Below, piece by piece: positions 667 to 8,793 of a stretch of DNA of 64,000 bases. The translations under genes and the position numbers were made by a program. How positions within the stretch are numbered: position 1 is the first letter of the stretch; every line of letters begins with the position of its first letter. This stretch comes from an uncultured Chloroflexia bacterium (GTDB lineage: Bacteria; Chloroflexota; Dehalococcoidia; DSTF01; JALHUB01), in assembly GCA_963703345.1 (NCBI GenBank), contig OY969814.1:704001-768000 (forward strand). Direction: 5' to 3'. The notes beneath the pieces were generated by a model. It saw nothing but the letters and a program-made list of their open reading frames with translations. It did no database searches and was not told where the DNA came from.

Positions 667-3435
667 ATGCACGCTCGAACCCTGGTGCGCCACCTGGTCA
701 TCGTGCTGTTGCTGGCGTTGGCTGTCGGCATTGGGTACTTCAGGACCGAAGGCCCATTCGCCTCCGGAGAGGCCGCTCTGACGCAACGAGCGGGCACGCT
801 CGCGAATGACGCTCCGGTTGCGCCATCCCCGGCCCAACCGACCGCATCCGCGCCCTCTCCCGCGCCGACCATTCTTCCGCCGCCCGCCCTGGCGATCCCT
901 CTTTCCTTTGCGCCGATTCCCAGCCAATCTCAAGACCCCAAGCTCGCGCCTCCGCTGGCGGAACTGCGGGACGCCGCCGTCGCAGCGATAACGAGTGGTC
1001 AGCCCAACGGCCTCGACCTCCCAAGCCAGCTTCCCGACGACCTGAAATCGCTGGTGCAGGGCAAGATGATGAGCATCAACGCGGCGGGCCAGGTTCAGGT
1101 CTACGTGAAAGTCGGCGCCACCGACGCTGCGGTCCTCGAAGCACTGGCTATGGCCGGCATGACCATCGAACGCGTCTCGGGGGACCTGACGCTGGTCCAG
1201 GGCTGGGTTTCCCCCAACGCTCTCAACGCACTGGCCGCCCTGGCGCCGGTCGAATCGGTGAGACTTCCTGACTACGGCTTCCCGCAGGCGGGTTCTGTGA
1301 TGACGGAAGGCGACGCCATCATCCGCGCCGACCTGGTGCGCTCCACCTTCGGCGTTACCGGCGCCGGCATACGCGTCGGTGTGATCTCAACCGGCGTCGG
1401 CGGACTATCCGGCGCGCAGGCAAGCGGCGACCTTGGTTCAGTCGATACGTCCACCTGCAACGTCACGGGGGTCGATCCTACGTCCACAGGAGCCGAAGCC
1501 ACCGCAATGATGGAGATCGTGTACGACATAGCGCCGGGTGCCCAGTTGTACTTCGGCCAGGCTTCTAGATCGTCGGGCATGAGCTCGGTCGATTTCAATG
1601 CCGCTGTGACCTGCCTTGCCGCCCACACCGACGTGGTCGTCAACGACATAAGTTTCTTCGCCGACGGCCTCTACGACGGAACGAGCTCCGTTTCGGCAAA
1701 CACCTCCACCCAACTCAACGCCGCCAGCAACCCCATCAGAGTCTACTCAACGTCCGTGGGCAACTATGCCTGGGGACACTACCAGGAGCAATTCACAGAC
1801 GACAGCGCCCAGGGTTTCCCTGGCTGGAACAAATTCCAGGGCACAGCCAGCACAACCGACGCGTATGCGTTGGGCGTGCAGCCCGTGGACGCGCTGGCGC
1901 TGCAGCCCAACGGCGAGGTCGGGGTGTACCTACAGTGGAACGACAGTTGGGGAGCGTCGTCCAACCACTATAACCTGAATCTCTACAATAATAATGACCT
2001 TGTGCACCCGGTGGCCTCGGGCACGGCTGTCTACGGCAGCAGTTATCCGATCGTGTACCTCCACTACATTAACACCACGGGGTCCGTCACCCAGTTTGAC
2101 ATCGCCGTCGTGAAACAAAGCGGAAGCGCGCGTACACTCGACATGTTTGTGATCCCCATCTCGGGAGGGACGCTACTGGTCAACGACACTCTTCTGAACT
2201 ACAACACCCTCTCCAGCAGCGTTCCCAACCAGTCCGACGCTGGCGGCGGTGTCATCTCCGTCGGCGCCATCGATCAAGCGGACTCCGGCCATGACACCAT
2301 CGAGGTATACAGCGGCCGCGGCACAACGAATGACGGGCGCACCAAGCCGGAGGTCACCGCCATCGACGGCGTGTGCGTTACCGGCGCGGGCGGCTTCGGC
2401 CAAGGGACGTGCCAGAGTATCGGCAAGCAGTTCTTCGGTACCTCCGCTGCTGCGCCTCACCTCGCCGCCGTCGCCGCGTTACTTCTCCAGTGCCGTCCCG
2501 ACTTGAAAGCCGGAGGGGCCACCGCCGCGTCGACAGCCCGGACCAATCTCCGCAACTACATCCTCAACAGCGCCGTCGATCTCGGCACCGGGGGCGTCAA
2601 CAACACCTACGGCAGCGGACGCCTCGACGCCTACGCCGCCGCCGTCGCCGCCGGCTGCACCAGCCCTTCGACCGCCACGCCGACGTTCACCCCAACGGAG
2701 ACGCCTACCCGCACGCCAACACCCACGCCCACGGACACGCCTACGTTTACGCCCACGCCTACGCCAACGCCAACGCGCACACCCACGCTTAGCCCAACGC
2801 CCACCCGCACCCCCACCGCGACCATTCCGGCCTGCACCGGCATAGTCAGCATTCAGTCGAGCAGCATTCTCGCCGGCGCAAGCACAACCGTCCGCTTGCA
2901 AACAGACGGAATCTGCGCGCCGGGCCTCGGGAACTACGCCGTCATCGTGAACTATGATCCGAACATCGTCCACGCCGACTCCTGCGTCTCCAACCCGGGC
3001 GGCGCCTTGACCGGTAGCTGCGACGTCAATTGGGGCACTGGCGCCGTTCTTGCGGTGGGATCGACTTCGACCCCCGGCGCGACCGGCACCGTCCCCTTCG
3101 CCGACATCACCTTCACCGCCGTCGGCAGCGCACCCTTAGTGACCGCGCTGCAGTTGGCCATCAGCCCGTTCCAGGACACGACGGGCACAGACATTCCCTA
3201 CGTGAATAGGGATGGCAGCATTCGGATCGGCGTCCGGGGCGACGCCACTAAGGACGGCAATGTCGCCATGGTCAACGCCATGCGCATCGCCCAGTGCATC
3301 GCCGGGCTGATCGATTGCTCGACACTCGATCAGACGATGGGGGACGTGAACTGCTCGAACAGCCTCACAATGGTGGACGCGATGCTGATAGCGCGCTACG
3401 TCGCCGGCCTGATCACCCAGTTCCCTTGCAGCTAG
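667..3435 (+). CDS. Secreted S8/S53-like serine peptidase with Thr/Pro linker, cohesin-like domain and C-terminal dockerin-like domain
   Basis: GGAGG RBS and signal peptide. Protease motifs [48 protein letters not shown] linker, then cohesin-like [13 protein letters not shown]...[10 protein letters not shown], then duplicated [22 protein letters not shown] dockerin repeats. Confidence 0.85.
2665..2822 (+). repeat. Thr/Pro low-complexity linker repeats (coding)
   Basis: Degenerate acgccn/acnccn units encoding [18 protein letters not shown] inside the S8 gene. Confidence 0.8.
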
Positions 3436-3505
3436 ACCGCGCCGCAATCGCTCGGACCGCCCTAGCCCCGGCGGCCTCGACCAGGGTCAAGCGAACGCTG
3501 CGGCC

Positions 3506-4390
3506 CTAGGGACGCGCTCTTCGCCGTACAAGCAACGCTCCCAAGGCGCCGACCGCTAAGCCCGCTGCGACAACCAGGCCGGTGGGTATCAGCCATCCCG
3601 GCCGGCCCTGAGAACCACCCTGGCTCGCCTGGGGCTTACCAGCGTTCCCGTTGTTCACGACCACGCTCGGCGTCGACTGCGTGCCGGTCGCGCTTCCCTG
3701 CGTGCCTGAAGGCACTGTCGCCGAAGACGAAGGCGAGACCGCCGTCCGCCTCGGCTCGCCCGCGCCTTGCGTCTGGCCCGGCGCCGTGGTGGCTAGAGTT
3801 TGTGCTCCGTTGGGGGGTGCGCTCTCCGTTGGCCCGCCGGGTTTCGCTGTGGCAGCCGGCGTTGTATTCGATTCCGCCGCCGGCGTCGGCGAAGTGACCA
3901 TGACGCCGCTGCCGATGCAGATCGATCCTTCCTCTTCTCTGGAGCTTAGAGGAGCTGCGTTGGGGTCCGTGAGCTCCGCGACGCTCAAGCTCAGTGGCGT
4001 ACAGGCGCCGTCGTGACCAGAGAGCCGAAAGACGATGTCCGCCAGCGCCGCATCTCCCGTAAGTCCTTCAGTTATCTTGTAGCCGCCAACCCGCACGATG
4101 CCCGGCTTGAAAGCGACGTTGCAGACGGCGTTGTCTAGCACGTTCGACGGGTCGCCCTGGCAGGAAACCGGCGAAACGACGGACGCATCGTAGGCGACGT
4201 CGATGGTGAAAGCCCCGAGGCCCGGGTCCGGGATGCCCAGCAGCTCCAGGCGCGCCGTCATCTCGTCTCCCGATTGGCCTGTCAGCGCGCCGATTCGAAC
4301 GGTCGTATCAGGAGCGCTGGCCGCAGCCGAGGGCAGCGATCCGAGCAAAACGACAGTAGCCGCCCAGGCTCCCTTCAACCACAACCTCAT
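3506..4390 (-). CDS. Cohesin-domain surface protein with C-terminal membrane anchor
   Basis: Signal peptide; cohesin-like GLGAFTIDVAYDASVV...LADIVFRLSG...LSVAELTD; S/T/P/G linker; hydrophobic helix followed by RRRARP tail. Confidence 0.75.
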   Translation of the reverse strand: MRLWLKGAWAATVVLLGSLPSAAASAPDTTVRIGALTGQSGDEMTARLELLGIPDPGLGAFTIDVAYDASVVSPVSCQGDPSNVLDNAVCNVAFKPGIVRVGGYKITEGLTGDAALADIVFRLSGHDGACTPLSLSVAELTDPNAAPLSSREEEGSICIGSGVMVTSPTPAAESNTTPAATAKPGGPTESAPPNGAQTLATTAPGQTQGAGEPRRTAVSPSSSATVPSGTQGSATGTQSTPSVVVNNGNAGKPQASQGGSQGRPGWLIPTGLVVAAGLAVGALGALLVRRRARP

Positions 4391-7636: not shown

Positions 7637-7672
7637 GCGCTAGACCCAGGTGGCCGATCCCAGGTCTAGCGC
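7637..7672. terminator. Intergenic hairpin, possible terminator or mRNA stabiliser
   Basis: gcgctagacc...ggtctagcgc inverted repeat between the 7702 and 7527 genes; no clear U-tract. Confidence 0.35.
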
Positions 7673-7701
7673 TTACAGTGTCGAGGAATTCCGGGCAGTC
7701 C

Positions 7702-8793
7702 CTAGCGGTCGCGCTGCCTTCTGCGAATCGAGACCGTCAGGATTCCCGCCGCTCCTGCCAGAGCACCTGCAGCGGCGAAATAAGTCCAGACTCCCGGACC
7801 GTCGCCGTCGCCCCCTGACCCCGTTGCCGGCGCTATCAGGTTGGCCCCTACCGCGCCCGCAGGCGTCGAGGTCGGAGCAACCACCACAACCGTCGTCGGC
7901 GCCTGTGTCATCGTCGGCGTCGCCGGTTTTGGCGTAGGTGTACTCGTCTTGCGGTGGTGTATCGTCGGCACCGGCGTGATCGTTGCCGTTGACGTCGGGC
8001 AGATTCCGCCGGGGCAAGGCGTGGCCGTCGAAGTCGGCGTCCGGGTAGCCGTCGGCGTGTTCGTGGGCGTCTCCGTCGGCGTGTTCGTAGGCGTCGCCGT
8101 CGGTGTATTCGTAGGCGTCTCCGTTGGCGTGTTCGTAGGCGTCGCCGTCGGCGTGTTCGTAGGCGTCTCCGTTGGCGTGTTCGTCGGCGTATCCGTAGGC
8201 GTCTCCGTTGGCGTGTTGGTCGCCGTCGCGGTGGGCGTGTCCGTATCTACGAGGCCGGTCCCCGTTCCGCCCGACGTGGTGTACTCTATGTCCACAGCGT
8301 CCGCATCCGTCAACTCATTCACAACGGGCGTCAGATCGCTGATTCCGGCTCCGACTACTTGGAAAGTGATATCGGCCAGCGCTACGTCCCCTGTGGGGCC
8401 GGTCAGAACCGTGGTGAATCCGGTGACCCTGACCGAATCGGGATTGACGTTATCAGCCTCGAAAGTGGGGTTGCAGACGACGGCAAAGTTCGCGATGTCG
8501 GTTGGGTTCGTGGTGCAAGGATCTATCGCATCCAGGATGGACGGATCGTATTGGACGTCGATATTGAAGGTGCCGACGCCGGGGCTGGCTACGTTCTCGA
8601 CACTGAGGCGCACCACGAAGGTGTCGCCCACCTCTGCCGAGCCGGAGGCGACGTGCACCTCAGTCCCGGTCCCGTCCAGCGTCGCTTCGCTACTGGCGGC
8701 GAAGAGGGGGACAGCCACCGCCAATCCTAGCGCGAGGACTCCTAATCCCGCCAGGAGCCAGATGCCTCGAATCCCTTTAAGCCGATCGTTCAC
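7702..8793 (-). CDS. Cohesin-domain surface protein with Thr/Pro stalk, APATG motif and C-terminal membrane anchor
   Basis: Signal peptide; cohesin-like [16 protein letters not shown]...[30 protein letters not shown] repeats; APATG, then TM helix, then RRRQRDR. Confidence 0.8.
8030..8240 (-). repeat. Tandem 12-nt-period coding repeats ([12 protein letters not shown])
   Basis: Repeated ggcgtgttcgt/ggcgtctccgt units. Confidence 0.85.

What the first reader, a model, noticed from the sequence alone, without database searches (positions are those of the whole stretch)
667..8793. Non-cellulolytic cohesin-dockerin gene cluster: candidate cell-surface multi-protein complex
Seen in sequence: five adjacent secreted proteins. 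Two are membrane-anchored single-cohesin scaffolds (3506, 7702), two carry dockerins (S8 protease at 667; DUF11/beta-repeat protein at 5197), and one is an orphan. Established: cohesin-dockerin pairs assemble cellulosomes and anchor them through cell-bound cohesins. Inference: the same logic may here display a protease and an adhesin-like protein, with no glycoside hydrolase in view, making a modular surface complex in a probable Chloroflexota cell.
Basis: partly seen in the sequence, partly recalled or inferred. Interest (0 to 1): 0.8.

Follow-up and report, generated by a model that had tools for sequence, protein, structure and literature searches.

The report
Private plug-and-socket protease display cassette
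In a probable Chloroflexota bacterium, five neighbouring genes encode two predicted cell-surface "socket" proteins (cohesins), a subtilisin-like protein and a repeat-built stalk that both end in cellulosome-type "plugs" (dockerins) of a rare subtype, and one truncated gene; the sockets likely hang the plugged proteins on the cell, apart from the genome's main scaffold system.

Summary
Confirmed, with corrections. The cohesins and dockerins are real by Pfam, AlphaFold2 and Foldseek. The protease at 667 also carries a cohesin just before its dockerin, and it has a Glu/Asp/Ser rather than Asp/His/Ser site. The "orphan" is a truncated copy of a surface-protein family; one relative ends in a half dockerin.

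The cluster is a satellite of a genome-wide, cellulase-poor system: 21 cohesins, two five-cohesin scaffoldins and five sortases. Its three cohesins, with one elsewhere, form their own clade. Its dockerins carry Met-Val/Thr at recognition positions 10/11, and these cohesin and dockerin classes co-occur across the order (16 of 93 genomes have both, 1 dockerin only, 76 neither).

The four minus-strand genes are absent from this site in 5 of 5 congeners examined. The resident protease has swapped tails: membrane anchor, classical dockerin, or cohesin-dockerin. It is likely a separate docking channel for surface proteases and binding proteins.

Binding and expression are untested; the complex predictor was unavailable. 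This scan has reported Dehalococcoidia cohesin-dockerin loci several times on other DNA; non-cellulosomal systems are published for ANME archaea and Paenibacillus.

The parts
667..3435 (+). Secreted subtilase-fold protein (922 aa): N-terminal hydrophobic segment, pro-region, catalytic domain with invariant E277/D327/N366/S593 and no catalytic-position His, Pro/Thr linker, cohesin, Met-Val-type dockerin
   Evidence: same architecture in P0033
2839..3228 (+).
3229..3429 (+). Dockerin of the protease; M-V at positions 10/11 in both repeats, four Cys, Asn instead of Asp at position 12 of loop 1
2689..3458 (+). Swapped tail cassette (linker + cohesin + dockerin + 3' flank), 76.8% identical in DNA to the tail of the papain-family gene at G000 262 kb; congeners' S8 genes stop matching at about 2685-2770
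3506..4390 (-). Anchor 1 (294 aa): single cohesin (3911-4306), low-complexity stalk, C-terminal hydrophobic segment and basic tail, no PxTG; N-terminal signal weak by hydropathy
   Evidence: 8 homologs at 61-68% identity
4387..5124 (-). Truncated secreted protein (245 aa from the ATG at 5124) of an unnamed Dehalococcoidia surface family; lacks the Big_1 domain and C-terminal attachment of its relatives; stop overlaps the next start codon
   Evidence: 3' end identical in run X1
5197..7527 (-). Non-catalytic cargo (776 aa): signal segment, DUF11 (6907-7302), five CarboxypepD_reg beta-sandwich repeats (5437-6897), Met-type dockerin (5215-5424; M-T/M-V at 10/11, 4-residue insertion in loop 2)
   Evidence: same domain set in P0098
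7702..8793 (-). Anchor 2 (363 aa): single cohesin (8254-8664), Pro/Thr stalk, PATG motif (7819-7830), hydrophobic segment, basic tail; predicted sortase substrate

Best explanation
The cluster encodes two single-cohesin proteins with C-terminal membrane or sortase-type signals and two secreted proteins ending in a distinct Met-Val dockerin subtype, and the anchors likely capture these dockerins to hold a predicted protease and a beta-sandwich stalk on the cell surface, probably independently of the genome's main scaffoldins.

Mechanism. All are exported (inferred from N-terminal hydrophobic segments). 7702 is likely linked to the wall by one of five sortases via PATG; 3506 likely stays in the membrane. 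Each anchor would bind one dockerin, probably calcium-dependent and possibly in two orientations, because 10/11 repeat symmetrically. Likely cargo: the S8 protein, the DUF11 stalk, and the papain-family protease at 262 kb, which has the same tail. The protease's own cohesin has lost residues kept by anchors and is likely a spacer, so chains of protease are unlikely.

History (inferred): the four minus-strand genes arrived beside a resident protease gene, whose tail was replaced in the Pro/Thr linker by the cohesin-dockerin tail; one incoming cargo gene was truncated.
For: Folds.

Own clade: G000's 21 cohesins split 17 versus 4 (three in the window plus 262 kb), SH-aLRT 99, quick tree.

Recognition code: Met at position 10 in 23 of 24 repeats of 12 subtype dockerins, versus mostly Ser/Ala in 36 related ones. 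Other G000 dockerins read TT/SS, PT/ST, MA/NT. Positions 10/11/17/18 as recognition residues: PMC3413522, passage.

Co-occurrence in 93 genomes of the order: dockerin class 17, cohesin class 16, all 16 within the 17. Two f4 genomes lacking both still have other cohesins.

Anchor and three such dockerins lie together on L016. Anchor homolog P0008 and orphan homolog P0016 (half dockerin) sit on contigs of the same length, 24,205 (same contig inferred).

Tail slot is an attachment slot: the syntenic S8 ends in a membrane anchor in G307, a classical dockerin in G302 and G058, and cohesin-dockerin here. G000's two papain paralogs are 88% identical but differ in tail.

Cargo of 24 subtype proteins scanned: proteases, propellers, beta-helices, beta-sandwich repeats; no glycoside hydrolase family.
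Against: No binding or expression data.

Each window dockerin has one non-canonical calcium loop: S8 loop 1 has Asn12, the only 1 of 12; the DUF11 protein has Arg3 in loop 1 and an insertion in loop 2. The dockerin was unresolved (pLDDT below 50) in the five-sequence tandem model; the high-confidence model relied on a family alignment.

G305 (5 contigs, 92% complete) has this dockerin on an S8 protease, but its only cohesin matches are the four protease-borne ones, with no free anchor. G306 has the dockerin without the cohesin class (fragmented assembly).

The co-occurrence rests on few independent events (f4 as one block, two f4 exceptions, three congeners), on thresholds I chose, and on a cohesin profile that held one f4 sequence. 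f4 dockerins are a related class, not the Met-Val subtype. One of five genes is truncated and a fourth G000 dockerin is a fragment.
Confidence: 0.6

Rival explanations
1. One shared pool: the window's modules work, but its dockerins also dock on the main scaffoldins (664-692 kb, 1.9 Mb) and its anchors accept classical dockerins, so there is no separate channel.
For: 17 other cohesins and 9 other dockerin-like tails are available in the genome. G306 has the dockerin with core-type cohesins only. Metagenomic P0013 joins both cohesin classes in one protein.
Against: Deep split of the cohesin classes, different 10/11 residues and class-level co-occurrence.
Confidence: 0.15
2. A decaying acquired cassette: the genes came in together but no longer assemble; the protease is simply secreted.
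For: Truncated orphan, dockerin fragment at 1.236 Mb, imperfect calcium loops, degenerate dockerins and no anchor in G305, absence from congeners at this site.
Against: Four of five ORFs are intact. Both anchors keep the conserved Arg/Glu. Recognition residues are kept in both repeats. The same architectures recur elsewhere (P0033, P0098, P0002-P0009). Single-loop dockerins function in R. flavefaciens (PMC12270676, abstract).
Confidence: 0.13
3. The modules are only calcium- and disulfide-stabilised stalk domains; the tails attach to the envelope some other way.
For: The protease-borne cohesins have a changed face, and G305 lacks free anchors.
Against: Anchors consist of little but one cohesin on a stalk; dockerins are strictly C-terminal and keep a symmetric 10/11 pattern; archaeal non-cellulosomal pairs are reported to bind (PMC9012536 section 32).
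Confidence: 0.07
4. Protease filaments: each protease's dockerin binds the next protease's cohesin, building chains rooted on the anchors.
For: Cohesin and dockerin lie in one chain. G305 has proteases with two such cohesins and no free anchor. Monovalent adaptor-enzymes are described in Paenibacillus guangzhouensis (PMC11557425 section 15).
Against: 0 of 6 protease-borne cohesins keep the Arg and Glu found in 9 of 9 anchors and 2 of 2 non-protease tandem cohesins. S8 proteins with this dockerin and no cohesin match exist (P0086, P0135).
Confidence: 0.05

Closest known systems
Cell-surface anchoring of dockerin-bearing proteases in cellulosome producers (C. thermocellum S8 protease Clo1313_0689 with cell-bound ScaD; R. 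flavefaciens cysteine peptidase)
   Same: A protease with a C-terminal dockerin proposed to dock on a cell-bound cohesin rather than a primary scaffoldin (PMC12484212, passages); 8x39 is among the top dockerin matches.
   Different: No cellulases found; single, not double, dockerin preceded by a cohesin; Met-Val recognition residues with disulfide-capable Cys; Glu/Asp/Ser-type site; different phylum.
Non-cellulosomal cohesin-dockerin systems of archaea (Archaeoglobus fulgidus pair; ANME scaffoldin-like proteins)
   Same: No cellulolytic cargo; proteins carrying both modules; proposed surface attachment (PMC9012536 section 32); 2xdh is a top fold match.
   Different: Bacterial, with sortase-type and transmembrane anchors; protease and beta-repeat cargo instead of ABC binding proteins or S-layer domains; several connector classes in one genome.
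Paenibacillus guangzhouensis monovalent adaptor-enzymes and Lachnoclostridium MSJ-17 single-cohesin transmembrane anchors
   Same: Enzyme + one cohesin + one dockerin in a chain; single-cohesin anchors with C-terminal helices (PMC11557425 section 15).
   Different: There the enzymes are glycoside hydrolases and the Paenibacillus anchors use SLH; that survey's text does not mention Chloroflexota.
Sedolisin-like (Glu-Asp-Ser, ED-S) subtilases
   Same: Subtilase fold with Glu, Asp, Ser in place of Asp-His-Ser (PMC9549277, one passage).
   Different: The Asp lies 50 residues after the Glu and an Asn follows in the oxyanion position; no sedolisin was among 24 PDB sequence matches. A separate subset of this kind is recalled from Siezen 2007, which was not available.

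Membership tests
Cohesin domain | Sequence profile and nine-stranded beta-sandwich fold of cohesins | tested here: met
   Pfam above cut-off for 3506 and 7702, below for the S8 copy; S8 copy modelled and matched to solved cohesins; family profile hits 6 solved cohesins. The two anchors were not folded.
Type I-like dockerin | Duplicated loop-helix repeats with dockerin fold | tested here: met
   (S8 dockerin; DUF11 dockerin by alignment only)
Type I-like dockerin | Two canonical calcium loops (D/N at 1, 3, 5, 9, 12) | tested here: inconclusive
   Family consensus is near canonical, but each window copy has one altered loop
Cohesin-dockerin pair | Specific calcium-dependent binding | not testable with these tools
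   Complex predictor unavailable; only co-occurrence and conservation
Cellulosome | Dockerin-borne glycoside hydrolases | tested here: not met
   No GH5 or GH9 in genome; no GH family in 25 system proteins of G000 or 24 subtype cargo proteins; other GH families not searched genome-wide
Cellulosome | Multi-cohesin scaffoldin | tested here: not met
   Window anchors are monovalent; the genome's five-cohesin scaffoldins belong to the other cohesin clade
Classical S8 (Asp-His-Ser) subtilase | Asp, His, Ser triad | tested here: not met
   Glu277 at the His-motif position; the Asp-motif residue varies D/N/T in 5 homologs; E277, D327, N366, S593 invariant
Sortase-anchored wall protein (7702) | PxTG-like motif + hydrophobic segment + basic tail, sortase and wall in the genome | tested here: met
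   5 sortases, 6 Mur-ligase and 3 transpeptidase matches. Anchoring itself not tested.

The most novel reading that the evidence does not exclude
Dehalococcoidia run several mutually exclusive cohesin-dockerin channels on one cell and rewire their surface by swapping C-terminal tails: an incoming anchor cassette opens a new channel, and resident proteases are re-addressed to it by recombination in their Pro/Thr linkers. The Met-Val, Cys-stapled pair would be a new orthogonal connector and a natural case of designer-cellulosome-style reprogramming.
Probability: 0.35. Interest if true: 0.72.

Novelty: new variant of a known kind. Interest (0 to 1): 0.52.

Why it matters
What non-cellulosomal cohesins and dockerins do is an open question. 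This locus offers a small, testable set (two anchors, three cargo proteins) inside a genome with other connector classes, so cognate versus non-cognate binding can be measured directly. The four states of one syntenic protease locus are direct comparative evidence that the dockerin tail stands in for a membrane anchor. A new orthogonal pair would be useful for synthetic scaffolds, and surface-tethered proteases suggest protein scavenging by sediment Dehalococcoidia. Tempering this: the general system is lineage-wide, has been flagged repeatedly by this scan, and has published analogues.

Tried and rejected
- Expression: no RNA holder listed; no conclusion drawn.
- Frameshift explanation of the orphan: tblastn of the 551-aa paralog finds nothing beyond aa 257 in any frame of the window, and DNA run X1 shows the same 3' end (possibly the source sample, and it reaches only two bases past the stop). 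It is a deletion-type truncation.
- Orphan's fold: no Pfam, NCBIfam or ESM Atlas hit.
- The idea that DUF11 was fused locally: rejected, as P0098 has the same domain set.
- Unusual composition: GC3 of the four minus-strand genes is 0.71-0.79, against 0.82-0.90 for six other window genes, but within the genome's range (median 0.81, lower quartile 0.73); not used as evidence of transfer.
- Promoter scan: 1 site versus 1.6 expected.
- GH48 search uninformative.
- The Fisher test on co-occurrence is disregarded because kin are not independent.
- The careful tree did not finish; the quick tree was used, and its non-G000 rows were chosen for likeness to the window class.
- Literature: 0 papers with cohesin+dockerin+Dehalococcoidia; 19 with Chloroflex*, seen as listings only, none on this by title; 1 unrelated for Dehalococcoidia+sortase+cell envelope. 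Peer 2009 and Siezen 2007 were not held, so earlier mention there cannot be excluded. Supplements were not read.
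Full report
OBSERVATION. The window is G000:704001-768000 of a 2.28-Mb single-contig genome, 95.85% complete. Taxonomy is inferred: a titled Dehalococcoidia MAG holds a 56%-identical dockerin (L033), and an earlier scan note calls this genome Dehalococcoidia (unchecked). All five ORFs are present. Pfam finds cohesins in 3506 and 7702, S8 + cohesin + dockerin in 667, and DUF11 + five CarboxypepD_reg repeats + a weak dockerin in 5197. AlphaFold2 of the S8 tail gave a confident beta-sandwich whose top PDB matches are all cohesins. 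Its dockerin was unresolved there, but with a 48-row alignment it modelled at pLDDT 96.8 and matched solved dockerins.

CORRECTIONS. The protease has its own cohesin. Its site is atypical: E277, D327, N366 and S593 are invariant in 5 of 5 homologs aligned, with Glu where subtilisins have His (the subtilisin motif positions are recalled). Activity is untested. The orphan (start likely 5124) matches aa 1-257 of a 551-aa paralog at 54% and has lost the rest. The family has 5 members in G000, and homolog P0016 continues into Big_1 and a single-repeat dockerin of the window's subtype. It is best read as a broken third cargo. 7702 ends in PATG, a hydrophobic segment and a basic tail; 3506 lacks the motif.

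GENOME CONTEXT. Iterated profiles find 21 cohesins in 12 ORFs, including two five-cohesin scaffoldins, and 8 dockerins; 5 ORFs with a second dockerin-like tail and 6 with a divergent cohesin-like domain; and 5 sortases, four in tandem 12-15 kb before the window. Mur ligases and transpeptidases are present. GH5 and GH9 were not found. PF00963 occurs in 31 of 40 relatives, so the system is lineage-wide.

A SEPARATE CLASS. In a quick tree G000's cohesins split 17 versus 4 (SH-aLRT 99); the four are the window's three and one at 262 kb. Four G000 dockerins form a matching subtype: 667, 5197, 262 kb and a fragment at 1.236 Mb. Met sits at position 10 in 23 of 24 repeats of 12 such dockerins and Val at 11 in 17 of 24, whereas 36 related ones mostly have Ser/Ala. 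Positions 10, 11, 17 and 18 are putative recognition residues (PMC3413522, two passages), and symmetry underlies dual binding (PMC12484212 section 3.1). Across 93 genomes of the order, 17 have the dockerin class (E<=1e-8) and 16 the cohesin class (E<=1e-22); all 16 are among the 17. Fourteen are one family whose dockerins are a related class; the close subtype (over 80 bits) occurs in G000, G305 and G306 only. A class-wide sample gave 4 of 401 at E<=1e-13. Among the top 150 representatives, 45 had a single domain of at least 75 bits, most with the Met-Val pattern. Of 24 cargo proteins scanned (21 of those 45 plus three others), Pfam shows S8 and M36 proteases, propellers, beta-helices, TSP3 and beta-sandwich repeats, and no glycoside hydrolase family.

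HISTORY OF THE LOCUS. I fetched the site in 5 of 8 congeners and 5 other family members. In four congeners the flanks (161-aa gene, hsp20, lon) are kept. G306 has no gene between them. G307 has the S8 gene ending in a membrane anchor. G302 and G058 have it ending in a classical dockerin. G305 is rearranged. None of the ten has the four minus-strand genes there. DNA likeness to congeners ends at about 2685-2770, in or near the Pro/Thr linker, while 2689-3458 is 76.8% identical to the tail of the papain-family gene at 262 kb. G000 holds each protease twice, once with a classical dockerin and once with this tail (papain pair 88% identical, S8 pair 52%). The tail is thus an exchangeable slot that can be a membrane anchor, which argues that it serves attachment (inference).

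MECHANISM. Shown: domains, anchor motifs, class structure, synteny. Inferred: export, sortase linkage, 1:1 capture of subtype dockerins by the two anchors, selectivity. All 9 anchor cohesins aligned, and 2 non-protease tandem ones, keep an Arg and a Glu that 0 of 6 protease-borne cohesins keep (the six are related, and placing these residues on the docking face rests on alignment to solved cohesins, plus recall). The protease's cohesin is therefore likely a spacer or of other specificity.

AGAINST. No binding or expression data. Each window dockerin has one imperfect calcium loop. G305 carries the dockerin with only protease-borne cohesins, and G306 without the class. The co-occurrence has few independent events and thresholds of my choosing, although a deeper profile leaves a gap (at most 51 bits in four negative genomes versus at least 85 in G305). 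One gene is broken.

COMPARISON AND NOVELTY. It works like cell-bound single-cohesin anchors that hold dockerin proteases in cellulosome producers (PMC12484212, passages). It is not a cellulosome: no hydrolase cargo was found and the anchors are monovalent. Non-cellulosomal systems are described for ANME archaea (PMC9012536 section 32) and Paenibacillus (PMC11557425 section 15). Searches found no paper on Dehalococcoidia, but two key subscription papers were not held. What this locus adds is the distinct connector subtype and the tail-swap series. Verdict: new variant of a known kind; interest 0.52.

Noticed in passing
window 47765-51553 (-): 1262-aa protein over 99% identical to the core-locus protein at G000 677196 (divergent cohesin-like domain, second-type dockerin-like tail), with a DUF3089 domain added after the tail: a recent duplicate that gained an enzyme-like cargo.
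   Followed up: partly
G000 664.5-692.4 kb (L003, L004), 12-40 kb before the window: Main surface locus: five-cohesin scaffoldin, single-cohesin anchors, PxTG proteins, unannotated cohesin-like and dockerin-like domains, four tandem sortases.
   Followed up: partly
G000 1905045-1908509 (L008) versus 666590-672978 (L003): A 1154-aa protein looks like a fusion of four scaffoldin cohesins with the neighbouring adaptor gene, leaving hydrophobic segments inside the chain.
   Followed up: no
L095:2645-4783; G000 1905045 and 1948879; P0017: A recurring C-terminal signal (VGG..E/D.P, hydrophobic segment, basic tail) distinct from PxTG; the processing enzyme is unknown.
   Followed up: no
G000 687480-689135 and 1041327-1042808: Orphan-family proteins end in a PxTG motif with no hydrophobic tail after it.
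   Followed up: no
P0013: Metagenomic protein with a window-class cohesin, a core-class cohesin and a dockerin-like tail: a possible bridge between the channels.
   Followed up: no
window 14460-19391: Ku and LigD genes followed by an encapsulin-family (Linocin M18) gene.
   Followed up: no
window 52745-56000 and 59492-60592: tRNA-Pro beside a low-GC stretch with an SMC/AAA ATPase; a second low-GC stretch with an SDH-type protease gene; possibly acquired DNA.
   Followed up: no
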